The notes beneath the pieces were generated by a model. The model was given only the letters and a program-made list of their open reading frames with translations, did not search any database and was not told the origin of the DNA. Of a stretch of DNA of 45,006 nucleotides, positions 2,342 through 21,211 are shown piece by piece. The position numbers and the translations under genes are program-made. Source of the DNA: a virus; UHGV virus genome UHGV-0282798. One strand, 5' to 3'. Every line of letters starts with the position of its first letter. Positions within the stretch are counted from its first letter, which is position 1.

Positions 2342-2344
2342 TAT

Positions 2345-3079: not shown

Positions 3080-3248
3080 CTTTGTTCAGATTGAAGCGGT
3101 TAATCAGTTCACGGCGTGTCTCGTAAAGCGACTCAACCATTTGCTCGGCTACAGCGATTTTGGTATTCAGGACGTGCATCACGTGGCCGATGTCTACGCC
3201 GCCGTTAACAGCCTCTACCATCATCTTTTCGTATTCACGGTCGGTCAT
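3063..3248 (-). CDS. Hypothetical protein
   Basis: ORF track. Confidence 0.4.
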   Translation of the reverse strand: MTDREYEKMMVEAVNGGVDIGHVMHVLNTKIAVAEQMVESLYETRRELINRFNLNKGDTNA

Positions 3249-3403: not shown

Positions 3404-3549
3404 TTCTTCTCTCCTGCGTAAGCTGCTTTCAGTGTTTGCATCGCAGCGAACCAGAACGCGTCAGCGGGGATACTGCTACTAAGGTTACTAACGGCGATAC
3501 GTGCCATCAGTTGTGCGTCTTTGAATGCTTCGATATCTGTGATTTTCAT
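3400..3549 (-). CDS. Small ORF (49 aa)
   Basis: Own translation MKITDIEAFKDAQLMARIAVSNLSSSIPADAFWFAAMQTLKAAYAGEKK; RBS GAGTAGAGAAG; first gene after promoter at 3589-3617. Confidence 0.3.
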   Translation of the reverse strand: MKITDIEAFKDAQLMARIAVSNLSSSIPADAFWFAAMQTLKAAYAGEKK

Positions 3550-3588
3550 CTTCTCTACTCCGTTCTCGTTCTCGTTGTCGATGAAGTA

Positions 3589-3617
3589 AATATAATAGGG
3601 TCTACGGTAATAGTCAA
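3589..3617 (-). promoter_or_regulatory. Sigma70-type promoter (minus strand): TTGACT-17-TATATT
   Basis: Reverse complement of 3589-3617 reads TTGACT attaccgtagaccctat TATATT; sits between tandem terminators and the next minus-strand gene. Confidence 0.35.
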
Positions 3618-3639
3618 CTAGTCATTACAGAAAATAGAT

Positions 3640-3671
3640 AAAAAAAATCCCGGCTGGGTCAGGGCCGGGAT
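3640..3671 (-). terminator. Intrinsic terminator (minus strand)
   Basis: Stem ATCCCGGC (3647-3654) / GCCGGGAT (3664-3671), 9-nt loop; on the minus strand the hairpin is followed by an 8-U run (plus-strand A-run 3640-3647). Downstream of the endolysin gene. Confidence 0.6.
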
Positions 3672-6468: not shown

Positions 6469-7034
6469 TTCAGTTTAGCCCCGCAATCAAGACACTTTTT
6501 AGTAAAACCCGGCGCAAAGCCTTTGCGCAAACCGACGGTATTAGCGTGTTGGCAATCGCTCGATTCCGATTCTTGCTTACCGCATTTAGCGCAAATGAAG
6601 TAGTCCCCTTTTTCATCTAGCACCCAATCATGCTCGCATTCCTGAGTATCTTCCTTACGGCAATCAGATTGCTCAGGTTCATGCGGAAACTTATTAGCTA
6701 GAACGGATACCTGCCTACCGAGTAAATTAAGCGCTTTCTGCAGCTCTGTCTCCCGCGCCGACGCATCGCGTAACTGATTCTTAAGTGACTGCAACTCATG
6801 CGCCAGGTCTTCGCACTGGTTGTTATTTACCTGCTGACGTAAACTGTCTTTCAGCGCTCGTATTTCGTCGTCCTTACCGGCGATATGCTGCTGTAGGTTG
6901 TGAATTACCTGCTTGACCTCATCAAGGTCGGATATCCGCACAGACACATCGAAAGATGTGACATCTTTCTTATTTACCTGCTGCCGTAGCTGGTCAATCA
7001 GGTACTCGAATACTACATCATTTGCGTTCTGCAT
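6465..7034 (-). CDS. Coiled-coil protein with C-terminal Zn-ribbon, paralog B
   Basis: Long heptad-like region then SDCRKEDTQECEHDWVLDEKGDYFICAKCGKQ plus a second CxxC (CLDCG). Confidence 0.55.
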   Translation of the reverse strand: MQNANDVVFEYLIDQLRQQVNKKDVTSFDVSVRISDLDEVKQVIHNLQQHIAGKDDEIRALKDSLRQQVNNNQCEDLAHELQSLKNQLRDASARETELQKALNLLGRQVSVLANKFPHEPEQSDCRKEDTQECEHDWVLDEKGDYFICAKCGKQESESSDCQHANTVGLRKGFAPGFTKKCLDCGAKLK

Positions 7035-7161
7035 TTTTAGCCTCTCTGTTCATAAGTTCCAGTAATAACCTAGCTGTTTGGCGCTCACGGGTGTTTCTCG
7101 GTGACGAGGCGTAGAACTCTAGCACCTCGCGTGATGGTTCTTGTGCGGTTTTACTGTTCAC
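7018..7161 (-). CDS. Small basic ORF (47 aa, GTG start)
   Basis: Own translation (M)NSKTAQEPSREVLEFYASSPRNTRERQTARLLLELMNREAKNAERK; RBS GGAGAG before GTG 7159-7161; just downstream of promoter 7191-7219. Weak. Confidence 0.25.
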   Translation of the reverse strand: MNSKTAQEPSREVLEFYASSPRNTRERQTARLLLELMNREAKNAERK

Positions 7162-7190
7162 TCTGTCTCTCCACTCGTTGGTGTAAATGA

Positions 7191-7219
7191 ATAGTAGCCT
7201 ATTCTATCTCAGTGTGCAA
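7191..7219 (-). promoter_or_regulatory. Sigma70-type promoter (minus strand) TTGCAC-17-TACTAT with AATAG-N4-CTATT dyad
   Basis: Reverse complement: TTGCAC (7214-7219), 17-bp spacer, TACTAT (7191-7196); dyad AATAGTAGCCTATT at 7190-7203. Confidence 0.45.
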
Positions 7220-7525
7220 GTAAATTTTATTGGCGTGTTATAGAATCTATGAACGACAGTAACGCGCGCTCCGCTTCTGCTTCTCTTTCTTCAAGCGACC
7301 AGGTAGCGGATTCCTCTGTTGCCGTTGCTATATCTGTTTTCACATCAATCATCGTGTTGATTAACGCGATTAGTCGTTCGGCCTGTTCTTTAGTAATCAT
7401 TGTTGCATCTCCTGCAATAGTCGCTTCTATTGTTGCGTTTGGTGAAATAGAACAAAAATGAGAAAAATGATACGCTGCTGTGTAGCAGCGTAAGTCACAA
7501 AGCCAAATAGTAACCTATTGACCTG

Positions 7526-7885: not shown

Positions 7886-8131
7886 TTAGTCCTCATCATC
7901 TTCTAAGTCGGGGTACACTATGAAATCGCCAAGCCTTTGCAACTCTGCACCTGCCATAAAATAACCAAGTGCTTCGGCTCTTTCGGAATCTGTTTTAAAC
8001 TCAGACAGAGGATATCTTTCGTAGAACTTGTTAATTAATAGCGCATGGTCAAACTTAGTTGCATCATAATTTTTCATAACTAATAACTCCGATAACTTTA
8101 GATTTCTCGCGCCGGGTGCAACCATGCTCAA
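7886..8131 (-). CDS. Small protein with acidic C-terminal tail (PDLEDDED)
   Basis: ORF track; C-terminus repeats the DLEDD motif found in the SSB tail and the primase linker; start may be internal (MKNYDATK). Confidence 0.4.
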   Translation of the reverse strand: MSMVAPGARNLKLSELLVMKNYDATKFDHALLINKFYERYPLSEFKTDSERAEALGYFMAGAELQRLGDFIVYPDLEDDED

Positions 8132-9774: not shown

Positions 9775-12042
9775 ATGTCCGATGTAATTTTATCCTACTC
9801 GTGGTCCCGTCGCAACGCGCGGGCAGAGAAAAAGGATATAAACGTCAGAACTACACACACGGCAACACTGGACGACCTGAAAGAGTTAATCCAGCCGCTC
9901 GATGCTGTTCGTGACGGAATTAACCCTAAGACAGCACCTGGCTATATTACTGCCGCGTGCGACTCAACGCACAGCACCGTAAAAGACCCGGAAACCGGTG
10001 ACTTTAAGCAAGCGCGTAAGGGTTTTTTCTATCGTTGCGACGCATCTGTAAGCAAATCGTCACTGGCGTATCTGGACTTCGACAGCGCAACACCGGAAGA
10101 GTATCAGGAAGCGGTGCGCCTGGTTAAGCGCAGCCGCCAGGCTATGTGCCTCTACACCACGGCATCGCATACCGATGAGTCTCCTCGCTTTCGCGTCGTC
10201 ATGCCGCTGGGACGCCCGGTCGAAGGTGGCGACATCATCCGCGTTCGTCATGGATTGCTCGGGCACTTCTTCAAAGGCATGGGTGCTGACCGCAGCGGGT
10301 TCACTCTGTCACAGCCGATGTACCTGCCGCCGGTTGGCGCTACCGTTATCTGGTCACGCCGCAATGACCTGATTGACCCGGACGAGTTACTGGAGGGTAT
10401 CCCCGCCGTTGACGTCAGCAGCGCATCGGATTACCAGATTCCGGAAGAACTGCGCACCGCGTTTACTGATGCGTTCGAGGTACTGGCGTTTGAGTACGGC
10501 GGCATCATGACGCCACGCGGCCTTAAGATGCCAGCTACACCGGAACACGCAGAAAACTACAGCGATCCAACACCGCGCCTGGACGACTTCCTATTGTGCT
10601 TTCCGCGCGAAGGGTACGAAGCGCCTAACGTAACCATGATTCACGACACCGACATTACCGCAACCGAAGGCATGTCGCCGAAGGAGGTGTGGAAGTATGC
10701 GTGTGATGCGACCGGGTTGCCGTTCAGTGAAGTCGCTGAGGCAATCGGCTGGGGTGCGCGTGAATCAGTTTCATGCAGCCTGGACGACCTGGAAGACGAT
10801 GAGGACTCAGAGGAGGACGAGTTACCAGAACCGGTAAAGGCTGATTTCGTCGTTGAAGGGTACATGCCGTCAGATTGTATCTGGGATATTGTCGGGGAAT
10901 CTGGCACGTACAAATCATTCTATACGCTGGGTATGATGTATCTCAGCGCCGCTGGTTACCGGTTTGCGGGGGCGGATACCCAGCGTTGTCACCATTTCTA
11001 TATCGATGGTGAGGGTGGTGCAGCCACACGTACACGTATCGATGCCCTCGCGGCTAAATATGGCGAGGAAGGTAAAGATTACGTACATGTCATCGATATG
11101 GGCGAAGTCGGCAAACTGAAAAGCCTGATTAAGTTAATGCGCGAAACCGCTGGCGATGAGCCAATAGGCATGGTTGCATTCGACACCCTTAACCAGACGC
11201 TGGCCCTGACAATCGATAAGTTCGACGAGAACAGTTCATCGACGGCAATCGGCATGGGTAAAGTTATCGCCATCCTGAAAGAAGTACGCGACGCAACTAA
11301 AGCCGCAGTAGGCGTTGTTCACCATACGCCGAAAGGCGGGAAGAAAGCACGTGGTAGCGGGGCACTGTATGCGGGTGTTGACGTGGAACTGACAATTGAG
11401 CGTGCAACCGACCGTCAGATAAACGTATATCACTCGAAATTTAAGCACGGGCCTCAACAGAAGACTGTTGGCATGGTTCTGGAGTCCGTACAGTTCCGTG
11501 AAGCCCCGCCGCCGAAACAGTACCGCGCGGTTGAGTTCCTGGGTAGCACAGAGGAATACGGCACAATCGTTAACCTCGACCTGCCGGAGCCGCACAAGGC
11601 GCTTGTGTTGATGCCGTGGGGCTTTGAACCGTTCAAGACCGACGAGGAGAAAGAGCGGGAAGAAGGGCTGACAAAGGAAGGTAAAGAAAACGTACGTAAA
11701 ACCGTAGAGAACGCCGTCAACAGCTCAGAAGCCACAATACTGGCAGCGTTTGAACTGGCGGAAGGAACCTACAACGGAAACGAAGGTATCACAGTAGCCG
11801 CAGCGAATAAGCTGGCACAGTCCGACCCCAACGCAAAGGCGTTTAACTCCAAAGAAGCCATAGAACGCGGGAAGATTAAGAAAATGGTTGAGGCCGGGTA
11901 TCTTGTACCGGGGACTGACGAAAACAATCAGATAATACCGGGCCGTTACAGACTTAACACCAGGATAACAGATAACAAGATTCCGAAGACAATATACGAA
12001 CCGAATGAAATGCTGACAGTGACCGAGGAGGATTTGGAATAG
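9775..12042 (+). CDS. Primase-polymerase (AEP) fused to RepA/DnaB-like helicase
   Basis: N-terminal AEP-like motifs (LDFDS, TTASHT); C-terminal P-loop GESGTYKS and Walker-B-like VAFDTLNQ; acidic linker DDLEDDEDSEEDE; C-terminus TVTEEDLE. Confidence 0.7.
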   Translation: MSDVILSYSWSRRNARAEKKDINVRTTHTATLDDLKELIQPLDAVRDGINPKTAPGYITAACDSTHSTVKDPETGDFKQARKGFFYRCDASVSKSSLAYLDFDSATPEEYQEAVRLVKRSRQAMCLYTTASHTDESPRFRVVMPLGRPVEGGDIIRVRHGLLGHFFKGMGADRSGFTLSQPMYLPPVGATVIWSRRNDLIDPDELLEGIPAVDVSSASDYQIPEELRTAFTDAFEVLAFEYGGIMTPRGLKMPATPEHAENYSDPTPRLDDFLLCFPREGYEAPNVTMIHDTDITATEGMSPKEVWKYACDATGLPFSEVAEAIGWGARESVSCSLDDLEDDEDSEEDELPEPVKADFVVEGYMPSDCIWDIVGESGTYKSFYTLGMMYLSAAGYRFAGADTQRCHHFYIDGEGGAATRTRIDALAAKYGEEGKDYVHVIDMGEVGKLKSLIKLMRETAGDEPIGMVAFDTLNQTLALTIDKFDENSSSTAIGMGKVIAILKEVRDATKAAVGVVHHTPKGGKKARGSGALYAGVDVELTIERATDRQINVYHSKFKHGPQQKTVGMVLESVQFREAPPPKQYRAVEFLGSTEEYGTIVNLDLPEPHKALVLMPWGFEPFKTDEEKEREEGLTKEGKENVRKTVENAVNSSEATILAAFELAEGTYNGNEGITVAAANKLAQSDPNAKAFNSKEAIERGKIKKMVEAGYLVPGTDENNQIIPGRYRLNTRITDNKIPKTIYEPNEMLTVTEEDLE

Positions 12043-12070
12043 GTAAAAAGAAAGGGGCGTTAAGCCCCTT
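12041..12070 (-). terminator. Intrinsic terminator for the repressor gene
   Basis: Stem AAGGGGC (12052-12058) / GCCCCTT (12064-12070); on the minus strand it is followed by UCUUUUUACC. Lies between the convergent primase and repressor genes. Confidence 0.5.
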
Positions 12071-12275
12071 CACCCAACGCCAGCCACTTGGCGTCTACTT
12101 GCAGCACTTCCGCCAGTTTAAACAGCGTTGCCGGGCGGACGTCCTGAGTTACCCCGAGTGCAAGCTGGTTAATCGCGCCCTGGGAAACGCCCGCAAGGAC
12201 CGCCAGACGGCGCTGGGAGATACCGAGTTCTTTACGGCGTTGCTCTACACGGATGCCTAGTTCAGATGGTTGCAT
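12060..12275 (-). CDS. XRE-family HTH transcriptional regulator (Cro/CI-like)
   Basis: 71 aa; QRRKELGISQRRLAVLAGVSQGAINQLALG is a classic XRE HTH. Confidence 0.75.
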   Translation of the reverse strand: MQPSELGIRVEQRRKELGISQRRLAVLAGVSQGAINQLALGVTQDVRPATLFKLAEVLQVDAKWLALGEGA

Positions 12276-12565: not shown

Positions 12566-13066
12566 ATGTTAGACCAATTCTTAAAATTACTGGAACGTTT
12601 CGTAGTTGCACATGAACTGATTGCTGCGAACAGCGCGAAAGAACCTGTGATTGGCTCCCCGGAACATTTTGCTGAGTTTTGTAAGTTGCAGGGTGTAAGT
12701 GTAAAAGAGGCTTTAACTAAACCTTCAAAAGAAATCCCGGTCGAAGGTGAAGACATCGTCGACACTAAACCGGCAGAAGAAGAGAAGCCAAAACGTAAGA
12801 CGCGTAAAGCTAAAGTAGAGGAACCAACGCCAGAACCGGAAGAAGAGAAAGAAGAAGTCGATTACCAGTCTCTTCGTGACCAGATTCAGGCTATCGATGA
12901 TGCAATTAACGAAGGTCCGAGTGATGCTGCGTGTGACGATTCTGATGAACTGCTGGAAGAGTTCACCGGTAAGAAGATGAAGATTGCCGCGATTAAAGAC
13001 GAAGACCTGGCCGAGTACCTGGAACGCCTCACGGCAATCAAGAACAAGTATTTCGAAGAAGAATAA
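12566..13066 (+). CDS. Acidic hypothetical protein
   Basis: ORF track; RBS AGGAGAGAAACAA nearly identical to that of the preceding small ORF; Glu/Asp-rich with a K/R patch. Confidence 0.5.
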   Translation: MLDQFLKLLERFVVAHELIAANSAKEPVIGSPEHFAEFCKLQGVSVKEALTKPSKEIPVEGEDIVDTKPAEEEKPKRKTRKAKVEEPTPEPEEEKEEVDYQSLRDQIQAIDDAINEGPSDAACDDSDELLEEFTGKKMKIAAIKDEDLAEYLERLTAIKNKYFEEE

Positions 13067-13121
13067 CTACTTAACTTATGGTGCCATCATACGTGAGGGC
13101 ACCAAACTGAGGGTCGGAATT

Positions 13122-13610
13122 ATGGATTGGCATGAGATATTCGACTATGACCGCGCCACAGGAAAATTGTATTGGAAAATACAGCCATCTCATGCGGTTA
13201 AGCCGGGTGAAGAGGCTGGAAGTGTGGGAACTGAGGGTTATGTAGATGTTGGTTTTGCAGGCCGTTTATATAAGGCGCATCGCATTATATGGGATATGAT
13301 GAACACTGACGATAAACTAACGCCGAACCACCAAATAGACCACATAAACCATATCAGAACGGATAATAGGATAGAAAATTTAAGGAAGGTACACCACTGT
13401 GACAACGCCAAAAATCAAAGCATGCGCGTAGACAATACCTCAGGTGTCGCGGGAGTATACTTCGACCGAACTAATAGAAAATGGAGGGCCCGCATTAGGG
13501 CGAGTGGCACGACCATTTGTTTGGGGAGATACGATAGTTTAGAAGAAGCCGCATGCGCACGCCAGAAAGCAGAAGAGATTTACGGGTTTCACAAAAATCA
13601 TGGGGGGTAA
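13122..13610 (+). CDS. HNH-AP2 homing-type endonuclease
   Basis: HQIDHINHIRTDNRIENLR (HNH) followed by AGVYFDRTNRKWRARIRASGTTICLGRYDSLEEAACARQKAEEIYG (AP2). ORF track starts at 12984; ATG 13122 (MDWHEIF) with RBS avoids overlap. Confidence 0.75.
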   Translation: MDWHEIFDYDRATGKLYWKIQPSHAVKPGEEAGSVGTEGYVDVGFAGRLYKAHRIIWDMMNTDDKLTPNHQIDHINHIRTDNRIENLRKVHHCDNAKNQSMRVDNTSGVAGVYFDRTNRKWRARIRASGTTICLGRYDSLEEAACARQKAEEIYGFHKNHGG

Positions 13611-13613
13611 AAG

Positions 13614-14855
13614 ATGATTTTAAAAGAACGCGGCGGCAATAACGACGTACATGCCTTACTGTCGCCGTCAGGGGCTAAAAAGTGGCTAAGTTGCGCTGCA
13701 TCACTGGCATGTGAAAAAGATATTCCCAACACGTCTGGTAAAGCTGCCGTTACAGGGACCGCGTGTCACACCATAGCGGAGATGCACCTTAACCAGTACA
13801 TCAAAGGCCCTGCGTTGCCGTTAGAGCGTGAAGTTGGTGCTTATGTTCTGGACGAGGGTAAGGGCCAGATTAAGGCGCTAATCAGCCCGATGAAAGGCGC
13901 GGTACTGATTACGGCGGACATGATTGAGCAGGTGCGCAAGTACACCGACTACTGCAAAGCGATTATCGACGTTGCCACTTACGCCAAGCTGGAGATGCGC
14001 GTCAATCTTACTGAGGTATTGCATCCGGGATATGAAGGCGTTGAGACGTTCGGAACCGCCGACCTTGTTGCCGTGCAGGAACTGGCAAACACTGACGAGC
14101 ACATGTTAATTATCGGCGACCTGAAAACAGGACGGCATCGTGTCGAAGCGAAAGAAAACAAGCAGCTTATGCTTTACGCTCTAGGCGTTTATCGCCGACT
14201 CAAGAGACGCTATAACATCACAGTTGTGCGCCTGGTCATCTTCCAGCCGTACGCTGGCGGGGCGTCGGAGTGGGACATCTTGGTTGAAGGTCTGGAACTG
14301 TTCGCTAAGTTTGCACAGAAACGTGCGCTGTTAGCCCTTGATGCGTATTTCCGTGGCAAGAAGAATCTGAAAGCGTCGGACTTCAGGCCGTCGGTCGATG
14401 GTTGTCAGTGGTGCCGGTTCTCTGAACAATGCGCCGCTCGTACAAAGACGGTTAATTCTGTACTGGCGGAAGAACTGGAAGACGACTTTGCGCTGGAACT
14501 TACGCCGGAGCAACTCGTCGCCGAGTATGAGAAGTTGCCGCTGTTGCGCCAGCACATCGACAAGGTTGAGAAAGCGATGGTCGCCGCATTGCATTCTGGT
14601 AAGAAAGTTCCTGGGTACAAGCTGGTTGAAGGTAAGATGGGCAATCGTGCGTGGAAAGACGCGGAGAAAGTAACAGAACTCTACGGCGACAAGCTGACTA
14701 AAGAAGTGCTCATGACGCCAACCGAAGCTGTTAAAGTGCTACCGGAAGAAGAACTGAAAGACTTCATCACACGTAAGCCCGGTGCCCCATGCGTCACAAC
14801 GGCAGACGACAAACGTCCTGAGTGGAATCAGGTAACAGAGGAGGATTTAGAATGA
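13614..14855 (+). CDS. PD-(D/E)XK exonuclease, Cas4/RecB-like
   Basis: Motifs GTADLVAV, IGDLKTG, QLMLYALG and the Cys cluster DGCQWCRFSEQC (C-x2-C-x5-C) plus an N-terminal Cys; C-terminus ends TEEDLE. Confidence 0.7.
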   Translation: MILKERGGNNDVHALLSPSGAKKWLSCAASLACEKDIPNTSGKAAVTGTACHTIAEMHLNQYIKGPALPLEREVGAYVLDEGKGQIKALISPMKGAVLITADMIEQVRKYTDYCKAIIDVATYAKLEMRVNLTEVLHPGYEGVETFGTADLVAVQELANTDEHMLIIGDLKTGRHRVEAKENKQLMLYALGVYRRLKRRYNITVVRLVIFQPYAGGASEWDILVEGLELFAKFAQKRALLALDAYFRGKKNLKASDFRPSVDGCQWCRFSEQCAARTKTVNSVLAEELEDDFALELTPEQLVAEYEKLPLLRQHIDKVEKAMVAALHSGKKVPGYKLVEGKMGNRAWKDAEKVTELYGDKLTKEVLMTPTEAVKVLPEEELKDFITRKPGAPCVTTADDKRPEWNQVTEEDLE

Positions 14856-15088
14856 TTCGTAAAATGTTCGGAGTAATTGGCGGTTTTGTAGCGTTTTTAA
14901 CCTATCACGCTCTAATACTGCCGCTGGTTATAATGCTTCTTCCGTTTTTCGTGTATACCGCCTTTAAGTGCAGGAAAATAGAACTAGAGGATTTGGTGTA
15001 CGCCAAAGAAGTTGAGTGGGTGCGTAATTTGAAGTGGCCCAACGTATACCTAACTATAGTTGAGAAAATAACTGGCTGGAAGGGTTGA
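14852..15088 (+). CDS. Small membrane protein
   Basis: ORF track begins at 14822; ATG 14852 has RBS GAGGAGG. Hydrophobic segments FGVIGGFVAFLTYHALILPLVIMLLPFFVYTAF. Confidence 0.4.
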   Translation: MIRKMFGVIGGFVAFLTYHALILPLVIMLLPFFVYTAFKCRKIELEDLVYAKEVEWVRNLKWPNVYLTIVEKITGWKG

Positions 15089-15167: not shown

Positions 15168-15794
15168 ATGGGCATTAAACTGAATCTGCGTAAAGTAAAC
15201 ACTGCATGGGTTAACGTATTCGAACGCGAAAAAGACCGTGAAAACGATGATGGCTCAATCACTAAAGGCCAGTACAGCGCGACTATTATCCTGCCGTCTG
15301 ACCATGCTCAAATCGACGCACTCTACGACACTGTTTACGCGGTAGTTGAGGAAGCGTTAGGTGCAGCGGCTGCCGAGAAGTGGATGAAGTCCAACTACGG
15401 CGAGGGTAAGCACATGGATAAATGCGCGATTAAAGACATTGCTGAGCGTGACAATCCGTTTGAAGACTTCCCGGAAGGCTTCTACTTCAAAGCGAAGGCA
15501 CAGAAACAGCCGCTGATTGTGACCTCTAAAAAAGGTGAGACTCAGGTAGAGCAGGACTTCAACGTAGACGGCGAACAGATTGAAGGCGAACAGGTTTACA
15601 GCGGCTGCGTTGCTAACGTAAGCGTTGAAATCTGGTTCAGCCAGAAATATAAAGTCCTCGGCGTTAACCTGCTGGCAATTAAATACGTCGGTGAAGGTAA
15701 AGCGTTCGGTGGTTCTAAAGTCGCCGCGAGCGTCGATGACCTGGAAGACGACGATGAAGATGAAGCACCACGCCGCGAACGTCGTCGTCGCTAA
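15168..15794 (+). CDS. ssDNA-binding protein, T7 gp2.5-like (putative)
   Basis: N-terminal pattern KLNLRKVNTAWVNVFE ... YSATIILPSDHAQIDAL resembles the gp2.5-like (DUF2815) family as I recall it; acidic tail VDDLEDDDEDE. Confidence 0.5.
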   Translation: MGIKLNLRKVNTAWVNVFEREKDRENDDGSITKGQYSATIILPSDHAQIDALYDTVYAVVEEALGAAAAEKWMKSNYGEGKHMDKCAIKDIAERDNPFEDFPEGFYFKAKAQKQPLIVTSKKGETQVEQDFNVDGEQIEGEQVYSGCVANVSVEIWFSQKYKVLGVNLLAIKYVGEGKAFGGSKVAASVDDLEDDDEDEAPRRERRRR

Positions 15795-15853: not shown

Positions 15854-16009
15854 ATGTTTTTCTGTAAGCACGTTTATCGCTATATGAAACCACTTCCGTG
15901 GTATGCAGATGAGTACCGGGCCGGGTACAGACATGTGTGGATTTGCCGTGATTGTATGAAAATAAGATTAAGCGAAACGAAGGCACTGGATTTAAGGAAA
16001 AAGAAATGA
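15854..16009 (+). CDS. Small Cys/His-containing ORF (51 aa)
   Basis: Own translation MFFCKHVYRYMKPLPWYADEYRAGYRHVWICRDCMKIRLSETKALDLRKKK; stop overlaps the polymerase ATG (ATGA). Confidence 0.3.
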   Translation: MFFCKHVYRYMKPLPWYADEYRAGYRHVWICRDCMKIRLSETKALDLRKKK

Positions 16010-18255
16010 GTTACCTGTTCTTAGACTTTGAAACATTCTCCGAAGCCGATTTGAAGAAAGTCGGTTCCTACGCTTACGCCGAACATCCGTCAACCGAAGT
16101 GCTTATCTGTACATACGCTTTTGACGACGCGCCGGTGCAGGTATGGGATTGCACAGACGGCAGCGACATGCCTGGGGATTTGCATCGCGCGTTACGCCGT
16201 CTGGTGAAGCCAAACAGTCGCATCAAGATGGTGTGGCATAACGGTGGACTTTTCGATAGGCTCATCATGAAGCACTGCTGGGGCTTTGATATTCCGGTAA
16301 GCAACACCATTGATACGATGATTTGGGCGTTTCGTCACGCGTTGCCGGGTTCTCTTGATGCACTGTGCGAAGTGTTGGGCGTATCTGCGGACAACGCAAA
16401 AGACAAACGCGGCAAGGCGCTGATTCAGCGTTTCTCTAAACCGACGCCGAAGAACTACAAAATCCGCCGTTACACCGCAGAAACACACCCGGACGAGTGG
16501 GCACTGTTCATCAAGTACGCCGTTAGCGACATCACTGCGATGCGTGAAGTATTCCATAAGCTGCCGCGGTGGGGTAACTCCGAGTTCGAGGACCGCGTAC
16601 TGGAACTGGACCAGTTAATCAATGACCGGGGGTTTAAGGTTGACGTAGCGCTGGCGGAAGCCGCGATTGCAGCCGTGGAGAAACACAAAGCGCAGTTACA
16701 AGAAGAAGCCCAACGCAAATACGGCGGCTCGCTTACGGGTAAAGACTTTCTGCCTATTCTGCGCGAACTAGCTCCTGCGCACCGCATCCACAACGCACAG
16801 AAGTCTACGCTTAACGACCTGCTGGCGGACGATGATTTACCGGACGACGCACGCACGATTATCGAAATGCGCCTCGGGGCCGCGTCCACAGCGTCAACGA
16901 AATATAACCCGCTACTGTTGGGCCGCTCTTCTGACGACCGACGTCGCGGTTGTATCCAGTACGGCGGGGCCAAGCGTACGTTACGGTTTGCGGGTAAAGG
17001 CTTCCAGCCGCAGAACCTGGCGCGCGGGTACTATCACGACGACCCGAAGAATAAAAAGAAGAAAGTACGTTATGACTGGATGTCAGAGAAGGACTGGTGG
17101 AGAGTAACACACCCATTGTCCTACGGAATCGACCTGTTGTTTAAAGGCCGTGCACACCGCCGTTTTGATGTAGCCAAACTAACGGCATCGACGGTGCGTA
17201 GCTGCATCATACCGGAAGCAGGACATAAGTTTGTCGTCGCCGATTACTCTAACGTTGAAGGCCGTGGTTTGGCGTGGCTGGCTGGAGAAGAAACCGCGCT
17301 CGATACGTTCCGCGCCGGGCTGGATATTTACTGCGTAACCGCGGGTAAGATGTTCGGAATGGACCCTGATTACATTCTCGAAAGCCGTAGTGACCTACGC
17401 CAGATTGGTAAAGCCTGCGAACTGGGTCTCGGCTACGCAGGCGGCGTAGGTGCTTTCGTTCAGTTTGCTAAGAACCTCGGCTTAAACCTTGTTGATATGG
17501 CAAAAACAATGGACGGGACATTCCCCGACCATATATGGGCCGCTACTGCACGCGGCTATGAATGGGCACGTATTCAGGAAGCCAAGCGACCTCCGCGGCC
17601 AGGTGAAAAGGATGACCGACCATCGTATATTCTTGATAAGAAAGTGTGGCGTACCTGCGACGCTATCAAGCGCATGTGGCGTGAGTCACACCCGGAAACA
17701 GTAGCTTTCTGGCGTGATATTGAAGACGCGGCTATGGCGGCTATCCGCAACCCTGGCAAAGAGTTCACCGCAGGCCCGCGCGGCGTTAAGTTTTCGCGTA
17801 ACGTGGAGACAGACAACAACGGCAACAAAGTCGCTGGTTGGTGGTTGCGCATGACGTTGCCGTCAGGTCGCGTTATGTCCTACCCGGGCGTCGGGTTAAG
17901 CGTGTCGAAAGAAACAGACGAAGATGGAAAAGTGTCTACTAACGTGCGCATCAAGTACCAGGGCGAGAACCAGCTAACCCGTCAGTGGGGTTTCCAATAC
18001 ACCTACTCTGGTAAACTGGTGGAAAACTGCACTCAGGCGCTATGCCGTGATTTGCTGGCTAATGCGCTGCTGAACGTCGAAGCAAACGGCTATCCAATTG
18101 TACTTCATGTCCACGATGAGATTATCTGCGAGACACCAGACACTCCCGAGTACACGGTGGCTGAACTTGAGCGGTTGATGTGCGAATTACCGGAATGGGC
18201 CGAGGGGTTCCCTCTTGTAGCGGAAGGTCAGGAGTTAAAACGTTATGCTAAGTAA
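16006..18255 (+). CDS. DNA polymerase, family A, with 3-5 exonuclease domain
   Basis: Exo motif FLDFETFS; Pol A motif A DYSNVEGR, motif B RQIGKACELGLGYAGG, motif C VLHVHDEI. Track ORF begins at an in-frame TTG (15952); ATG 16006 has an AAGGA RBS. Confidence 0.85.
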   Translation: MSYLFLDFETFSEADLKKVGSYAYAEHPSTEVLICTYAFDDAPVQVWDCTDGSDMPGDLHRALRRLVKPNSRIKMVWHNGGLFDRLIMKHCWGFDIPVSNTIDTMIWAFRHALPGSLDALCEVLGVSADNAKDKRGKALIQRFSKPTPKNYKIRRYTAETHPDEWALFIKYAVSDITAMREVFHKLPRWGNSEFEDRVLELDQLINDRGFKVDVALAEAAIAAVEKHKAQLQEEAQRKYGGSLTGKDFLPILRELAPAHRIHNAQKSTLNDLLADDDLPDDARTIIEMRLGAASTASTKYNPLLLGRSSDDRRRGCIQYGGAKRTLRFAGKGFQPQNLARGYYHDDPKNKKKKVRYDWMSEKDWWRVTHPLSYGIDLLFKGRAHRRFDVAKLTASTVRSCIIPEAGHKFVVADYSNVEGRGLAWLAGEETALDTFRAGLDIYCVTAGKMFGMDPDYILESRSDLRQIGKACELGLGYAGGVGAFVQFAKNLGLNLVDMAKTMDGTFPDHIWAATARGYEWARIQEAKRPPRPGEKDDRPSYILDKKVWRTCDAIKRMWRESHPETVAFWRDIEDAAMAAIRNPGKEFTAGPRGVKFSRNVETDNNGNKVAGWWLRMTLPSGRVMSYPGVGLSVSKETDEDGKVSTNVRIKYQGENQLTRQWGFQYTYSGKLVENCTQALCRDLLANALLNVEANGYPIVLHVHDEIICETPDTPEYTVAELERLMCELPEWAEGFPLVAEGQELKRYAK

Positions 18256-19114: not shown

Positions 19115-19794
19115 TTGTCTGGTCATTGTTTGACGGTTCGGGCCTTATGGCCCAACCGTGGGCAGAAGCAGGCCATACTTGCTATTGTTTCAACTACGAC
19201 GGTGCCGACCACGGCGACTACGCACGATTGGGCGCAAAAGTTGAACACGAGAACATCCACTATATAAACGCGTGGATTGATAATAAGTTCGACTTCGAGG
19301 TTGCGCCAGATATTATTTTTTCGTTCCCTCCGTGCACAGATTTAGCCGTTAGTGGCGCTGCGCATTTCGAAACCAAGCGGAAGAAGAACCCAACGTTTCA
19401 GGTAGGGGCCGTTATCACATGTAAAGTGGCTGCGCGTCTGGCTAAAAAGTACAACGTACCCTATATGATTGAGAACCCGGTTAGCGTTCTTTCGTCTTTA
19501 TGGCGTAAACCCGATTACGTGTTCAATCCTTACGACTACGGAGGTTATCTACCGGAAAACGACACACATCCAATGTTCCCAGAGTACATAAAACCGAGGG
19601 ACGCGTACCCTAAAAAGACATGTCTTTGGGTGGGTAATGGTTTCGTAATGCCGGTTAAGTCGGGTGTTGCCGTGGGTGATGGGTATTCTGACCAGCACAA
19701 CAAACTTGGCGGTAAATCAGTGCGGACAAAAACAATCCGCAGCCTCACCCCGCGGGGTTTTGCAAAAGCAGTTTACGAGGCTAATCATGTCTAA
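19111..19794 (+). CDS. Compact C5-cytosine-methyltransferase-like protein (~227 aa)
   Basis: Motif I SLFDGSG; motif IV DIIFSFPPCT (PC, but T replaces the usual Q); motif VI MIENP (ENV-like); RSLTPRGFAKAV resembles motif IX; no room for a normal target-recognition domain. Confidence 0.5.
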   Translation: MIVWSLFDGSGLMAQPWAEAGHTCYCFNYDGADHGDYARLGAKVEHENIHYINAWIDNKFDFEVAPDIIFSFPPCTDLAVSGAAHFETKRKKNPTFQVGAVITCKVAARLAKKYNVPYMIENPVSVLSSLWRKPDYVFNPYDYGGYLPENDTHPMFPEYIKPRDAYPKKTCLWVGNGFVMPVKSGVAVGDGYSDQHNKLGGKSVRTKTIRSLTPRGFAKAVYEANHV

Positions 19795-21211
19795 GTTTCA
19801 AAGGCGCGAGTACCAGAAACTCATGACTTCGTTCATGTTGCGGCACCATCGCTGTAACATATGGGCGAGCATGGGCGCCGGGAAGACTGGCAGCGTACTG
19901 TGGGCATTAAACCGACTGTTCCGCAACGGTCAAATTAACGATGACGACCGCGTGTTAATCCTTGCCCCGTTGCGCGTTGCGTCCGGCACATGGCCAGCAG
20001 AACAAGAAAAATGGCAATTCCCGTGTCTACGTGTCGTCGATGCAACTGGTTCGGAGAAGCGCCGCATCGCGGCGCTGGAGTCTGACGCTAACGTGGTGTG
20101 CACGAACTACGAAGTTATCGAGTGGCTGATTGACTACTACGGCAAAGACGACTGGCCTTTTACGGTTATCGTTGCCGATGAGAGCACGAAACTGAAGTCA
20201 TTCCGCAGCCGTTCTGGAGGTAGCAAGCGGGCAAAGGCGCTCAGCAAAGTGGCGTTCGGTAAAGTTAAGCGTTTTATCAACCTGACTGGTACGCCGTCGC
20301 CGAACGGCCTCAAAGACTTGTGGGGTCAGAACTGGTTTATCGACGCTGGCGAGCGCCTGGGGTCGTCGTACACGGCATTCACCGACCGATGGTTTAACTC
20401 TGTACAGAAAGGCAAATCCGCGATGGCGCGTGAGTATCATGCGCGCCCTGGCGCGGATAATGAAATTCACCAGAAGATGAAGGACATCAGTCTTACGATT
20501 GATGCCGCTGAGTGGTTCGGTTGTGAAGCGCCGATTATTGTTCCAGTTGAAATCGACCTGCCGAAGAAAGCACGTCAGGCGTACATCGATATGGAGGAAA
20601 AGTTATTCGCGGAACTGGAGAGCGGGGAAGTTGAAGCGGCTAACGCGGCGGCGAAGACGTCGAAGTGTTTGCAGATTGCATCCGGTGCCGTATATGTATC
20701 CGGGCCAGACGGCGACGCAACCAAAGACTGGGAGAAAGTGCACGACACGAAACTTGATGCTCTTGAGTCAATTGTTGAGGAGTTACAGGGTTCGCCGCTA
20801 TTGGTGGCCTATCAGTTCAAGCACGAACTGGAGCGTATCCTTAAGCGATTCCCGCAGGCGCAGGCGTTTTCTAAAGGTGCGAAGGGTAATAAGCAGATGG
20901 AAGCGTGGAACCGAGGAGAGATACCTATGCTATTGATACACCCAGCCTCCGCAGGCCACGGGCTGTCGCTACAACACGGCGGGCATCACATGGCTTTTAT
21001 GAGTCAGGGATGGAACCTGGAACACTATTTGCAGGTTATCGAGCGAATAGGTCCGGTAAGGCAGATGCAGTCTGGGTACAAACGGTCGGTATTCATTTAT
21101 CAAATAATAGCCCGAGATACTCTTGATGAAGTTGTCTCCGCTCGTACAGACGAGAAAAGGTCTGTACAGGACGAACTACTTAACTATATGAAGAGAAGGA
21201 GTAAGAAATGA
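19787..21211 (+). CDS. SNF2-family helicase
   Basis: GAGKTG (Walker A), ADESTK (DExx), LTGTPSPN, HPASAGHGLSLQ. Track ORF 19664; ATG 19787 (MSKFQRREYQ) overlaps the upstream stop. Confidence 0.75.
   Translation: MSKFQRREYQKLMTSFMLRHHRCNIWASMGAGKTGSVLWALNRLFRNGQINDDDRVLILAPLRVASGTWPAEQEKWQFPCLRVVDATGSEKRRIAALESDANVVCTNYEVIEWLIDYYGKDDWPFTVIVADESTKLKSFRSRSGGSKRAKALSKVAFGKVKRFINLTGTPSPNGLKDLWGQNWFIDAGERLGSSYTAFTDRWFNSVQKGKSAMAREYHARPGADNEIHQKMKDISLTIDAAEWFGCEAPIIVPVEIDLPKKARQAYIDMEEKLFAELESGEVEAANAAAKTSKCLQIASGAVYVSGPDGDATKDWEKVHDTKLDALESIVEELQGSPLLVAYQFKHELERILKRFPQAQAFSKGAKGNKQMEAWNRGEIPMLLIHPASAGHGLSLQHGGHHMAFMSQGWNLEHYLQVIERIGPVRQMQSGYKRSVFIYQIIARDTLDEVVSARTDEKRSVQDELLNYMKRRSKK

What the first reader, a model, noticed from the sequence alone, without database searches (positions are those of the whole stretch)
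15168..15794. Shared acidic motifs mark a putative interaction network in the replication module
The SSB-like protein ends VDDLEDDDEDEAPRRERRRR. The primase-helicase has an internal linker DDLEDDEDSEEDE and ends TVTEEDLE. The Cas4-like exonuclease ends QVTEEDLE, the same last six residues. A small early protein (7886-8131) ends PDLEDDED. In T7, acidic C-terminal tails of gp2.5 and gp4 mediate replisome contacts, so recurrent DLEDD / TEEDLE tails on four proteins suggest competition for a common basic docking site. The small early protein could be a mimic of such a tail.
Basis: partly seen in the sequence, partly recalled or inferred. Interest (0 to 1): 0.5.

Follow-up and report, generated by a model that had tools for sequence, protein, structure and literature searches.

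The report
Shared acidic docking peptide on replication proteins
Three DNA-replication and recombination proteins of this E. coli phage (the single-strand DNA-binding protein, the primase-helicase and the exonuclease) carry copies of one short acidic "Asp-Leu" peptide that is conserved and changes in step across many related phages, which suggests they all plug into one common docking site, much as in phage T7.

Summary
The window is a Kagunavirus-like siphophage. In all six frames, DLEDD occurs only three times and EEDLE only twice, always at the named sites.

In 60 related viral contigs and named phages of several genera, the dipeptide D-L is near-invariant at four sites:
- the SSB tail just after the OB fold;
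- the primase-helicase inter-domain linker;
- the primase-helicase C-terminus;
- the exonuclease C-terminus.

This holds down to about 26% protein identity. The residues are kept through synonymous codon changes and in any downstream context.

The motif changes in step within genomes. Scapp uses DF..L at all four sites. MA12 ends four proteins in DD[DE]L. In another large DUF2815 lineage, the exonuclease tail copies the SSB's two-part tail, including its last residues.

A ribosome-binding-site overlap explains only the codon choice in some kagunaviruses.

Best reading: one short docking motif shared by the SSB and the enzymes that produce single-stranded DNA. The receptor is unresolved. It could be the SSB's own DNA cleft (crystal precedent in Enc34) or the polymerase (T7 precedent).

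The idea that the small early protein mimics the tail is not supported.

This is a new variant of a known principle and is of moderate interest.

The parts
15168..15794 (+). Gene for the gp2.5-like (DUF2815 / Enc34-type) single-strand DNA-binding and annealing protein, 208 aa
   Evidence: Pfam PF10991 scores 58.6 bits against a cut-off of 26. PHROG 112 is 'Gp2.5-like ssDNA binding protein and ssDNA annealing protein'. In the AF2 model the core has pLDDT of about 85, and Foldseek top hits are 4KLK, 5ODL (Enc34), 4JG2 and 1JE5 (T7 gp2.5).
15735..15764 (+). SSB tail motif DDLEDDDEDE, a copy of the shared D-L peptide lying just after the OB fold
   Evidence: D191 and L192 are invariant in a 70-sequence alignment. 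A[ST]x[DN]DL[EGDS]DD is present in all 61 clade loci. AF2 predicts residues 177-208 as disordered, with pLDDT below 50.
15765..15791 (+). Arg-rich end of the SSB tail (APRRERRRR)
   Evidence: It is conserved as xPRRERRRR in close relatives. More distant relatives have two or three alternating acidic and basic blocks instead. Its function is unknown.
9775..12042 (+). Primase-helicase gene, 755 aa (N-terminal primase region, AAA_25/RepA-like helicase, C-terminal domain and tail)
   Evidence: Pfam AAA_25 covers residues 352-522. PHROG 3228 'replicative helicase-primase' matches over the full length at E=1e-286.
10783..10821 (+). Inter-domain linker motif DDLEDDEDSEEDE between the primase and helicase parts
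   Evidence: The aligned motif C-x-x-[DE]-D-L-x-[DE] is kept in relatives down to about 26% identity: CSLDDLEDD, CTLEDLEE, CDEEDLADE, CQDEDLMD, CTDEDLDD. It is also present in JL1 and eiAU. Scapp has DDFEDIADDE at the same place.
12016..12039 (+). Primase-helicase C-terminal tail TVTEEDLE
   Evidence: All 54 primase-helicase homologues in the 61 loci end in [DE]xDL plus 0-2 residues. Across haplotypes, D is encoded by GAT or GAC and L by TTA, TTG, CTA, CTG or CTC.
13614..14855 (+). DUF2800 / PD-(D/E)XK (Cas4/RecB-like) exonuclease gene, 413 aa
   Evidence: Pfam DUF2800 scores 227.7 bits and PDDEXK_1 scores 36.5 bits. The cysteines C27, C264, C267 and C273 are invariant in the 10-phage alignment.
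14829..14852 (+). Exonuclease C-terminal tail QVTEEDLE
   Evidence: 58 of 61 homologues end in [DE]xDL plus 0-2 residues. In the 10-phage alignment, a hydrophobic anchor (L or F) aligns 4-5 residues after the conserved DKRP segment.
14466..14489 (+). Possible fifth, weaker copy: AEELEDDF in the exonuclease linker after the Cys cluster
   Evidence: Relatives have ESDLSDD, EDDLADG, TDADLGDD or DELADVGG at the aligned place. JL1 has TATDEDLGDD. Conservation is looser than at the C-termini.
14835..14855 (+). DNA cassette ACAGAGGAGGATTTAGAATGA: a Shine-Dalgarno sequence (GAGGAGGA) plus an ATG overlapping the exonuclease TGA stop, which starts the 78-aa ORF 14852-15088
   Evidence: The same arrangement is annotated in phage EC3-1 as gp10/gp11.
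12022..12042 (+). Second copy of the cassette (ACCGAGGAGGATTTGGAATAG). Here it is orphaned, with no start codon, and a terminator-like hairpin follows.
   Evidence: In EC3-1 the identical cassette starts an HTH gene (gp4) that is absent from the window.
7886..8077 (-). Small accessory ORF (63 aa from the ATG at 8077) ending PDLEDDED. It is probably not part of the network.
   Evidence: It matches PHROG 27229, of unknown function. Homologues occur in 41 phage records of unrelated replication types and have variable acidic ends. A homologue was found in only 1 of 60 related loci within the 10-kb flank.
16006..18255 (+). Family A DNA polymerase, a candidate receptor. It carries no acidic tail and ends KRYAK.
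   Evidence: Pfam DNA_pol_A matches, and PDB sequence hits are to Taq, Bst and Klenow. The C-terminus ..[RK]YAK or YRYRK(D) is conserved in relatives.

Best explanation
The recurring acidic stretches are copies of one short linear docking motif. It consists of a hydrophobic anchor set in acidic residues; here the form is [ST]-[DE]-x-D-L.

The motif sits on flexible, disordered segments of three proteins: the SSB tail directly after its OB fold, the primase-helicase inter-domain linker and C-terminus, and the exonuclease C-terminus.

Because the copies are the same peptide and change together between phage lineages, they most likely bind the same basic, hydrophobic receptor site and exchange on it. 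This would couple the enzymes that create single-stranded DNA (helicase, 5'-3' exonuclease) to the SSB/annealing protein and the polymerase.

Two receptors are plausible and are not mutually exclusive.
(a) The positively charged ssDNA cleft of the SSB itself. In this case the exonuclease and helicase would hold free SSB by a peptide that mimics the SSB's own tail and hand it to nascent ssDNA, which displaces the peptide.
(b) A basic patch on the phage DNA polymerase, as in T7.

What is shown: the motif exists, is specific, is under selection at the protein level, changes in step within genomes, and lies in a disordered SSB tail.
What is inferred: binding, the identity of the receptor, and the hand-off mechanism.
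For: Specificity:
- In 13,529 six-frame ORFs from 61 loci, 118 end in [DE].DL.{0,2}. Of these, 58 are the exonuclease, 54 the primase-helicase and only 6 anything else.

Conservation:
- D-L is kept at all four sites in nearly all clade loci, down to about 26% identity for the primase-helicase.
- It is also kept in Cornellvirus, Dhillonvirus and Eiauvirus.

Selection on the peptide rather than the DNA:
- The codons vary (Leu by 5 codons, Asp by 2).
- The downstream context varies: an overlapping ATG, a promoter or a terminator.

Change in step within genomes:
- Scapp has DDFDELDE, DDFEDIAD, EEFEELE and SDFENLE at the four sites.
- MA12 has four proteins ending AFDNMDDDL, AFDDVDDDL, AFSDDDEL and FTDDEDDL.
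- Staphylococcus phage JS02 has exonuclease AEDDFDKL and SSB AEDDFDEL.
- Streptococcus and Bacteroides phages share DF[DE] between the two proteins.
- Sergei lacks the motif in both proteins.
- In 80 loci of another DUF2815 lineage, the exonuclease tail (NDFDDVSDDALAADLI) mirrors the SSB tail (DDFDDISEGADADALI), and the tips match (LI/LI, LA/LA, LV/LV, EFI/EFV).
- Within-genome tip identity exceeds shuffled pairings (0.48 against 0.24, p about 2e-4).
- Primase-helicase and exonuclease tails are more alike within a genome than between genomes (3.36 against 2.43, p<1e-4).

Disorder: AF2 gives pLDDT below 50 for SSB residues 177-208, next to a confident OB core.

Precedent:
- In crystals of Enc34 ORF6, of both other DUF2815 proteins and of T7 gp2.5, the C-terminal tail lies in the concave sheet of a neighbouring molecule.
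- Deleting the tail changes DNA discrimination (PMC5686142).
- T7 gp4 acidic tails bind basic patches of gp5 (PMC12593628).
Against: - No binding data exist, and no complex could be modelled with the available tools. The receptor is therefore unidentified.
- The permutation tests are not corrected for shared ancestry. Many loci are close relatives, so p-values overstate independence. The qualitative change in step rests on about 8-10 independent lineages.
- Acidic disordered linkers are common, and the two internal copies (primase-helicase linker, exonuclease linker) are weaker evidence than the C-termini.
- Unlike T7 and E. coli, the tails here do not end in an aromatic residue. The SSB tail ends in an Arg-rich segment, so the T7 mechanism cannot be transferred residue for residue.
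- In some lineages (RLK, AhaSv and the L071-L150 group) the primase or helicase does not carry the motif. The three-protein network is therefore lineage-specific, and only the exonuclease-SSB pairing is general.
- In some kagunaviruses, part of the nucleotide identity of the two TEEDLE tails comes from a shared ribosome-binding cassette.
Confidence: 0.7

Rival explanations
1. The identical TEEDLE ends are a by-product of translation signals. On this view the codons GAG GAG GAT TTR GAA TGA are simply the Shine-Dalgarno sequence, spacer and overlapping start codon of the next gene, duplicated at two gene junctions. The amino acids themselves would have no function.
For: GAGGAGGA lies 7 nt upstream of the ATG that overlaps the exonuclease stop codon. 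In EC3-1 both genes end with the identical 21-nt ACAGAGGAGGATTTGGAATGA, and in each case a downstream gene starts in it. The cassette occurs twice in the window and 0 times in shuffles.
Against: - The peptide is kept where the signal is not. Many relatives encode SEEDLE as AGT GAA GAA GAT TTG GAA TAA followed by a promoter.
- Distant primase-helicases encode ADEDLE or DDADLE with no Shine-Dalgarno sequence and a terminator hairpin after the stop.
- In the window itself, the primase-helicase copy has no downstream start.
- D-L is encoded by many different codons.
- The SSB and linker copies are internal to genes and have no such signal.
Confidence: 0.05
2. The acidic segments are generic disordered 'DNA-mimic' tails that act independently. 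Each would fold back on the DNA-binding surface of its own protein (auto-inhibition) or simply improve solubility. There would be no common partner and no network.
For: Acidic tails of SSBs are known to compete with ssDNA in cis or trans (Enc34 and T7 gp2.5: PMC5686142, PMC10359462). The exonuclease and the helicase also have basic DNA-binding surfaces. The small ORF family shows that variable acidic ends can occur without any link to this module.
Against: Composition alone does not explain three things:
- an invariant D-L at a fixed distance from the C-terminus;
- the near-exclusive occurrence of that ending on two protein families;
- the matched change of anchor type (L or F), spacing and terminal residues in different proteins of the same genome.
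Confidence: 0.15
3. The shared peptide docks onto a host protein rather than a phage protein, for example a host replication or repair factor or a protease adaptor. The phage proteins would share it because they all need the same host factor.
For: In the wider DUF2815 family some SSB tails end in DDIPF, DDIPY or DVPF, the tip of bacterial SSB that binds many host proteins. The motif persists in L150 and L104, where the family A polymerase is replaced by a family-B-like enzyme.
Against: - Motif variants differ among phages of the same host genus. In E. coli and Salmonella phages: DDL in kagunaviruses, jerseyviruses and dhillonviruses, and none in Sergei. Among other enterobacterial phages: DF..L in the Serratia phage Scapp and DD[DE]L-COOH in the Pectobacterium phage MA12.
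- The motif tracks the phage lineage rather than the host.
- EEDLE does not resemble the SSB-Ct (DDDIPF) or the clamp-binding (QL[SD]LF) consensus. Those consensus sequences are cited from established knowledge, not from a search.
Confidence: 0.08
4. The similarity is due to recent DNA-level copying (gene conversion or illegitimate recombination) of a short segment between genes of the same genome, without selection for a shared function.
For: The two TEEDLE tails match at 20 of 24 nt in the window and 100% over 21 nt in EC3-1. Natural tandem duplications of the motif exist: L030 SSB DDLEDDLEDD and the L025 linker EEDLADEEDLADEE.
Against: The motif is ancient. It is shared by phages of Proteobacteria, Firmicutes and Bacteroidota. 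In most genomes the copies use different codons and differ in flanking residues. Copying without selection would not keep D-L invariant over that depth.
Confidence: 0.02

Closest known systems
Phage T7 replisome: acidic C-terminal tails of gp2.5 (SSB) and gp4 (primase-helicase) binding gp5 polymerase and the gp2.5 DNA cleft
   Same: - The SSB has the same fold family as T7 gp2.5: Foldseek matches 1JE5, and Pfam and PHROG both class it as 'Gp2.5-like'.
- Both the SSB and the primase-helicase carry acidic, disordered tails.
- The polymerase is family A, with no clamp gene in the module.
- In T7 the gp4 tails dock on basic patches of gp5 (PMC12593628), and the gp2.5 tail competes with ssDNA for its own cleft (PMC5686142, PMC10359462).
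   Different: - Sequence identity is only about 15%.
- The anchor is an internal Leu followed by 0-2 residues, not a C-terminal Phe.
- The SSB copy is proximal and is followed by an Arg-rich end.
- A third protein, the DUF2800 exonuclease, carries the peptide.
- The primase-helicase has a second copy in its linker.
- The helicase is RepA/AAA_25-like, not T7 gp4-like.
Enterobacter/Hafnia phage Enc34 ORF6 and other DUF2815 SSBs (PDB 5ODJ/5ODL, 4JG2, 4KLK)
   Same: - Same Pfam family (PF10991).
- Same duf2800-gp2.5-polA gene module (PMC8093625).
- Acidic unstructured tail. In the crystals it lies in the groove of a neighbouring molecule, and its deletion alters DNA discrimination (PMC5686142).
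- In the HMMER alignment, the Tyr of Enc34's tail segment DTSDAYDEDE aligns with the Leu of DDLEDD.
   Different: - The published work describes only the SSB tail. I found no report that the exonuclease and primase carry the same peptide.
- The Enc34 tail is purely acidic and ends WDEDEV. The window's SSB ends in APRRERRRR.
E. coli SSB C-terminal tip (DDDIPF) interactome
   Same: The principle is the same: a short acidic peptide with a hydrophobic anchor on a disordered tail serves as a hub for many DNA-metabolism proteins, and it also contacts the SSB's own OB fold. Some DUF2815 SSBs elsewhere end in DDIPF or DDIPY.
   Different: In E. coli only the SSB carries the peptide and the partners carry pockets. 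In this phage the partner enzymes themselves carry the peptide. The sequence also differs from the IPF consensus, and the OB subtype is different.
Lambda Exo-Red-beta and RecE-RecT exonuclease/annealase pairs
   Same: A 5'-3' exonuclease is paired with a single-strand annealing protein encoded next to it. In lambda, a specific contact is thought to load the annealase onto the ssDNA that the exonuclease produces (PMC6393309 abstract).
   Different: The protein folds are unrelated. In lambda the contact is made by a folded C-terminal domain of Red-beta binding to Exo, not by a shared disordered peptide.

Membership tests
T7-type (gp2.5-like) SSB, Pfam PF10991 Enc34_ssDNA-bd / DUF2815 | Profile match above the curated threshold | tested here: met
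   58.6 bits against a cut-off of 26, covering residues 5-198. PHROG 112 matches at E=1.6e-42.
T7-type (gp2.5-like) SSB, Pfam PF10991 Enc34_ssDNA-bd / DUF2815 | OB fold with the long capping helix after strand beta-2, and structural similarity to gp2.5 and Enc34 ORF6 | tested here: met
   The AF2 model (70 sequences, pTM 0.72) has helix 49-76 after the N-terminal strands. Foldseek hits are 4KLK (E=3e-9), 5ODL, 4JG2, 5ODJ and 1JE5 (E=9e-6).
T7-type (gp2.5-like) SSB, Pfam PF10991 Enc34_ssDNA-bd / DUF2815 | Disordered acidic C-terminal tail | tested here: met
   Residues 177-208 have pLDDT below 50. Residues 190-199 are DDLEDDDEDE. The last 9 residues, however, are basic, which is atypical.
T7-type (gp2.5-like) SSB, Pfam PF10991 Enc34_ssDNA-bd / DUF2815 | Preferential ssDNA binding and strand annealing | not testable with these tools
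   Requires biochemistry.
T7-like tail-mediated replisome coupling (works-like claim) | Acidic C-terminal tails on both the SSB and the primase-helicase | tested here: met
   The tails are conserved in relatives.
T7-like tail-mediated replisome coupling (works-like claim) | C-terminal aromatic residue (Phe) as the essential anchor. This feature of gp2.5 and gp4 is cited from established knowledge, not from a search. | tested here: not met
   The tails end ...DLE. The SSB ends RRRR. The anchor is a Leu at position -2 or -3. In other lineages the anchor is Phe or a terminal Leu.
T7-like tail-mediated replisome coupling (works-like claim) | Tails bind basic patches on the family A polymerase, and tails are interchangeable | not testable with these tools
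   No complex modelling or binding assay was available. A 23-aa basic insertion in the polymerase (PKNKKKKVR...) is not conserved outside close relatives. The motif persists next to a family-B-like polymerase in L150.
DUF2800 / PD-(D/E)XK Cas4-RecB-like exonuclease | Profile match and conserved nuclease core with a four-cysteine cluster | tested here: met
   DUF2800 scores 227.7 bits against a cut-off of 21, and PDDEXK_1 scores 36.5 bits. C27, C264, C267 and C273, together with D150, D169 and K171, are invariant in the 10-phage alignment. Nuclease activity was not tested.
Bacterial SSB-Ct motif (DDDIPF) | C-terminal [DE]-[DE]-[DE]-I-P-F | tested here: not met
   No IPF or IPY occurs at any of the tails in the window.
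Beta-clamp binding motif (QL[SD]LF) | Gln followed by a hydrophobic pentapeptide near a terminus. The consensus is cited from established knowledge, not from a search. | tested here: not met
   The tails are TEEDLE and DDLEDD, with no Q-L-x-L-F.

The most novel reading that the evidence does not exclude
A family-wide 'SSB-tail mimicry' code. In the very widespread duf2800-gp2.5-polymerase module (phages and prophages of Proteobacteria, Firmicutes and Bacteroidota), the enzymes that generate single-stranded DNA (the exonuclease everywhere; the primase-helicase and sometimes an SNF2 helicase in some lineages) carry a copy of the SSB's own tail peptide. The peptide plugs the SSB's ssDNA cleft, so that SSB/annealase is held ready and handed to nascent ssDNA. 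The lineage-specific variants of the peptide (DDL; DDFDD[LIV] plus a DL[IVA] tip; DD[DE]L-COOH) would act as a specificity code that keeps the modules of different phages from cross-talking.
Probability: 0.3. Interest if true: 0.75.

Novelty: new variant of a known kind. Interest (0 to 1): 0.58.

Why it matters
Acidic tails as replisome 'Velcro' are textbook knowledge for T7, T4 and E. coli SSB, where the partner enzymes carry the pockets. Here the same peptide sits on the SSB and also on the enzymes that feed it ssDNA, and it changes in step with the SSB tail across a gene module found in well over a thousand phage genomes and many prophages.

If confirmed, this would provide three things:
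- a simple, sequence-readable marker of which proteins belong to one replication and recombination machine;
- a concrete hypothesis for how the gp2.5-like SSB/annealase is loaded by its cognate exonuclease and helicase;
- practical guidance for transplanting these exonuclease/annealase pairs as recombineering tools, namely to keep the tails matched.

It also makes the question directly testable with short peptides and tail swaps.

Tried and rejected
1. RBS-only explanation. I examined the DNA of the tails in 26 relatives. The peptide is kept without the signal, so this explanation is rejected as the cause and kept only as the reason for codon choice in some kagunaviruses.

2. Small early protein as mimic. 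Its family was traced to unrelated phages with variable acidic ends, so the idea is rejected.

3. SSB Arg-rich end as the receptor for the acidic tails. MA12 and the L071-L150 lineage share tails but have no basic SSB end, so this cannot be general.

4. A polymerase basic insertion (PKNKKKKVR) as the receptor. It is not conserved beyond close relatives.

5. AF2 of the SSB, to see whether the tail docks in cis.
- The first run, with 7 sequences, failed (pLDDT 39).
- The second, with 70 sequences, gave a good core but a disordered tail. This is uninformative about docking.
- Complex or fusion modelling was not attempted.

6. Testing whether exonuclease tails follow SSBs that end in DDIPF. The alignment was too divergent for a locus search. 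Single-protein scans returned three loci without IPF tips, or nothing.

Diversity was obtained instead by tblastn against the phage collection and by an SSB-profile locus search.

8. PDB sequence searches for the exonuclease and the primase-helicase found nothing.
Full report
**What the window is.**
The 45-kb window is a Kagunavirus-like siphophage (Guernseyvirinae). The 10 kb around the finding is 88-91% identical at the nucleotide level to E. coli phages such as K1G, K1H, K1ind, ST20 and EC3-1.

The finding's coordinates (15168-15794, +) are the gene for a 208-aa SSB of the Enc34/DUF2815 family, which is gp2.5-like. Pfam PF10991 scores 58.6 bits, and PHROG 112 is 'Gp2.5-like ssDNA binding protein and ssDNA annealing protein'.

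Around it lie:
- a 755-aa primase-helicase (9775-12042; AAA_25; PHROG 'replicative helicase-primase');
- a 413-aa DUF2800 / PD-(D/E)XK exonuclease (13614-14855);
- a family A DNA polymerase (about 16006-18255);
- an SNF2-type helicase (19664-21211).

This is the duf2800-gp2.5-polA module already noted in the literature (PMC8093625).

- In a six-frame translation of the whole window, DLEDD occurs three times and EEDLE twice. Runs of five or more acidic residues occur only at the three DLEDD sites. All of these are at the named places.
- Shuffling the residues of 386 six-frame ORFs never produced three DLEDD (0 of 2000 trials). It produced an identical C-terminal hexapeptide pair in only 11 of 2000 trials.

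Two corrections are needed. Seven terminal residues (VTEEDLE), not six, are shared by the primase-helicase and the exonuclease. The small ORF most likely starts at the ATG at 8077, giving 63 aa.

**A DNA-level explanation had to be excluded first.**
The exonuclease tail is encoded by ACA GAG GAG GAT TTA GAA TGA. GAGGAGGA is a strong Shine-Dalgarno sequence lying 7 nt before an ATG that overlaps the TGA stop, and that ATG starts the next ORF, 14852-15088.

In phage EC3-1 both the primase-helicase and the exonuclease end in the identical 21-nt ACAGAGGAGGATTTGGAATGA. Each copy is followed by an overlapping downstream gene.

In the window the primase-helicase copy is orphaned. It reads ...GGAATAG, is followed by a terminator-like hairpin, and the HTH gene is missing. 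So part of the nucleotide identity reflects a shared translational-coupling cassette.

The cassette does not explain the peptide.
- Many relatives encode SEEDLE as AGT GAA GAA GAT TTG GAA TAA followed by a promoter.
- Distant primase-helicases encode ADEDLE or DDADLE with no Shine-Dalgarno sequence and a terminator after the stop.
- Across haplotypes the invariant Asp-Leu is written with GAT or GAC and with TTA, TTG, CTA, CTG or CTC.

Selection therefore acts on the amino acids.

**Conservation in homologues.**
I fetched 60 viral contigs encoding SSB relatives (100% down to 44% identity) with 10-kb flanks.
- All 54 primase-helicase homologues end in [DE]-x-D-L plus 0-2 residues. Examples are TVTEEDLE, KTTEGDLE, AADEDLE, EDDDLSD and SDEDLNS, and the pattern holds even at about 26% overall identity.
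- 58 of 61 exonucleases do the same (V[ST]EEDLE, VTEDDLEA, VSDEDLA, ATDSDLED).
- All 61 SSBs have A-[ST]-x-[DN]-D-L-x-D-D directly after the OB core.
- The primase-helicase linker keeps C-x-x-[DE]-D-L-x-[DE] (CSLDDLEDD, CTLEDLEE, CDEEDLADE, CQDEDLMD, CTDEDLDD).
- An unbiased scan shows how specific the ending is. Of 13,529 stop-terminated ORFs in the 61 loci, 118 end in [DE].DL.{0,2}, and 112 of those are the exonuclease or the primase-helicase.
- D191 and L192 of the SSB are invariant in a 70-sequence alignment.
- The named phages Shemara (Cornellvirus), JL1 (Dhillonvirus) and eiAU (Eiauvirus) show the same four copies.
- A looser fifth copy may sit in the exonuclease linker (AEELEDDF).

**The motif changes in step within genomes.**
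This is the strongest evidence for a common partner.
- In Serratia phage Scapp all four positions carry an F-type variant: SSB ADDFDELDEDD, primase linker DDFEDIADDE, primase end EEFEELE, exonuclease end SDFENLE.
- In Pectobacterium phage MA12 four proteins end alike: exonuclease AFDNMDDDL, an unannotated 864-aa primase AFDDVDDDL, the SNF2 helicase AFSDDDEL and the SSB FTDDEDDL.
- In Staphylococcus phage JS02 the exonuclease has AEDDFDKL and the SSB has AEDDFDEL.
- Streptococcus phage P9 and Bacteroides phage BK745P1 share DF[DE] between the two proteins.
- Caulobacter phage RLK has EAFANL in one protein and NEFAGL in the other.
- Salmonella phage Sergei, whose SSB tail is not acidic, also lacks the motif on its exonuclease.
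- In a 10-phage exonuclease alignment, the hydrophobic anchor (L or F) aligns 4-5 residues after a conserved DKRP segment.
- In 80 loci of another DUF2815 lineage, the exonuclease tail (for example NPVNDFDDVSDDALAADLI) reproduces both parts of the SSB tail (ASTDDFDDISEGADADALI). The extreme tips match within genomes: LI/LI, LA/LA, LV/LV, EFI/EFV.
- Identity of the last residue is 0.48 within genomes against 0.24 for shuffled pairings (p about 2e-4).
- In those loci, 134 of the 143 ORFs with an acidic, hydrophobic-tipped end are the exonuclease or the SSB.
- Within the window's clade, primase-helicase and exonuclease tails are more alike within a genome than between genomes (3.36 against 2.43, p<1e-4).

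These permutation tests are not corrected for shared ancestry. The qualitative pattern rests on roughly 8-10 independent lineages.

**What the wider family shows.**
Among 150 representatives of the DUF2815 family, the tail usually has a proximal D-[DE]-F-[DE]-D-[LIV] motif plus a C-terminal tip. The tip is often DDL[AIVT] and sometimes the bacterial-SSB-like DDIPF or DDIPY. The window's DDLEDD aligns with the proximal motif.

The HMMER alignment to Enc34 ORF6 places the Leu opposite the Tyr of DTSDAYDEDE. The Enc34 paper makes four relevant points (PMC5686142):
- the tail is disordered;
- the traceable end of the tail inserts into the concave sheet of a neighbouring molecule, as it also does in 4JG2, 4KLK and T7 gp2.5;
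- ssDNA binds a positively charged cleft;
- removing 21 C-terminal residues lets the protein bind dsDNA.

My AF2 model of the window's SSB (70-sequence alignment) has a confident OB core and a disordered tail, with residues 177-208 at pLDDT below 50. It matches 4KLK, 5ODL, 4JG2 and 1JE5.

**Mechanism.**
The best-supported reading is that these are copies of one short docking motif on flexible segments, and that they compete or exchange on one receptor.

In T7, the acidic tails of gp4 bind basic patches on the polymerase (PMC12593628). The gp2.5 tail is implicated in contacts with both the polymerase and the primase-helicase (PMC5686142) and competes with ssDNA for its own cleft (PMC10359462).

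Two receptors fit the data here.

(a) The SSB's own ssDNA cleft.
- Tail-in-groove contacts are seen in crystals of this very family.
- The only proteins that always accompany the motif are the exonuclease and the SSB themselves.
- The motif persists in L150 and L104, where a family-B-like polymerase replaces the family A enzyme.
- The carriers of the peptide are the enzymes that produce ssDNA.
Together these points suggest that the carriers hold free SSB/annealase and hand it to nascent ssDNA.

(b) The polymerase.
- This is the T7 precedent.
- The polymerase is the replisome core protein that never carries the tail; it ends KRYAK or YRYRK(D).
- A polymerase gene sits next to the SSB gene in almost every locus.
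- Sergei, which has the other polymerase type, lacks the motif.

I could not discriminate between the two. I put roughly 0.4 on (a), 0.3 on (b) and the rest on both or another partner, within an overall 0.7 that the motif is a shared docking peptide.

**The small early protein.**
Its family has the core LINKFYERYPL...ERAEALGYFMAGAELQ and matches PHROG 27229. It occurs in 41 phage records, including ES18, Edno5 (next to RecT), Drexlerviridae and Nonanavirus, which do not have this replication module. Their ends are acidic but variable: EDEVYDE, EELFGDE, NDKDDSDEY, NDEDDDDDY. The Shemara homologue lacks D-L, although Shemara uses the D-L motif elsewhere. The resemblance of PDLEDDED to the SSB tail is best treated as coincidence within a generic acidic end.

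**Comparison with what is known, and novelty.**
The SSB is a member of the T7-type/DUF2815 family by profile and by fold, and it has an acidic disordered tail.

The system works like the T7 tail network but fails one defining detail of T7, the C-terminal Phe anchor. It also adds new features:
- the exonuclease carries the peptide;
- the primase-helicase has a second copy in its linker;
- the SSB ends in an Arg-rich segment;
- the copies change in step across a very widespread module.

Full-text searches for DUF2800/DUF2815 and for SSB-tail mimicry found descriptions of the module and of the SSB tail. They found no report of the shared peptide on the exonuclease or primase. The library is not exhaustive.

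I rate this a new variant of a known kind. It is moderately interesting (0.58) and directly testable with peptides and tail swaps.

Noticed in passing
window 12022-12042 and 14835-14855 (+): A 21-nt cassette (ACAGAGGAGGATTTRGAATGA: Shine-Dalgarno sequence, spacer and an ATG overlapping the stop codon) ends both the primase-helicase and the exonuclease genes. The primase-helicase copy in the window is orphaned. It reads TAG instead of the ATGA overlap, a terminator-like hairpin follows at about 12053-12072, and the HTH gene present in phage EC3-1 is absent.
   Followed up: yes
window 15765-15791 (+); L065 5924-6688; L063 10721-11464; L064 10325-11062: The SSB tail ends in an Arg-rich segment (APRRERRRR). 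Relatives carry two or three alternating acidic and basic blocks, for example Scapp with DDDDDDDEPRSKRKSKRRR three times. Such charge-block tails are unusual for SSBs and remain unexplained. They might bind nucleic acid or promote self-association.
   Followed up: partly
L030 (SSB tail) and L025 (primase-helicase linker): Natural tandem duplications of the motif exist: SSB ...VDDLEDDLEDDGPAPRR... and linker ...CDEEDLADEEDLADEE.... The copy number of the peptide can therefore change.
   Followed up: no
window 12984-13610 (+): An HNH_3 + AP2-domain homing-endonuclease ORF sits immediately upstream of the exonuclease gene. EC3-1 has two small unrelated ORFs at that position.
   Followed up: partly
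window 12566-13066 (+): A very acidic 166-aa protein (PHROG 3127; annotated '13.88 kDa late protein' in relatives) has a conserved aromatic-acidic C-terminus: KYFEEE here, and KYYELED, KYYEVEE or RYYEIED in distant relatives. It could be a further, different tail peptide in the same module.
   Followed up: partly
window about 17060-17130 (+), polymerase residues about 362-384 of the 15952 ORF: The polymerase has a 23-aa insertion (PKNKKKKVRYDWMSEKDWWRV) found only in Guernseyvirinae and Dhillonvirus. The KKKK run occurs only in the window's sequence among the nine polymerases aligned.
   Followed up: partly
L150 9660-11489, L104 1194-2972, L070 (Sergei) 10085-11941: A polymerase of about 600 aa with no Pfam hit but family-B-like motifs (DVASYYPS, NGSFGK, NTDG) occupies the slot next to the DUF2815 SSB in place of the family A polymerase. 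L150 and Sergei are 28% identical (E=9e-47).
   Followed up: partly
L067 (Pectobacterium phage MA12, NC_053015.1), minus strand 1074-3668 of the locus: An 864-aa ORF is not annotated in the record. It is probably the primase, and its C-terminus (AFDDVDDDL) matches those of the exonuclease, SSB and SNF2 helicase.
   Followed up: partly
L159 (Streptococcus phage P9, DQ864624.1) about 6850-7414: The DUF2815 SSB gene appears split by a frameshift in the record. Only the C-terminal 101 aa are annotated.
   Followed up: no
window 19664-21211 (+): The SNF2-type helicase has a conserved basic C-terminus (..YMKRRSKK here, ..YMKRRGKK in most relatives). The MA12 homologue instead carries the acidic shared tail.
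   Followed up: no
L056 10789-10980 (+): A small ORF directly after the SSB gene ends TATDEDLE, the same ending as the exonuclease and helicase tails. It is uncertain whether it is a real gene.
   Followed up: no
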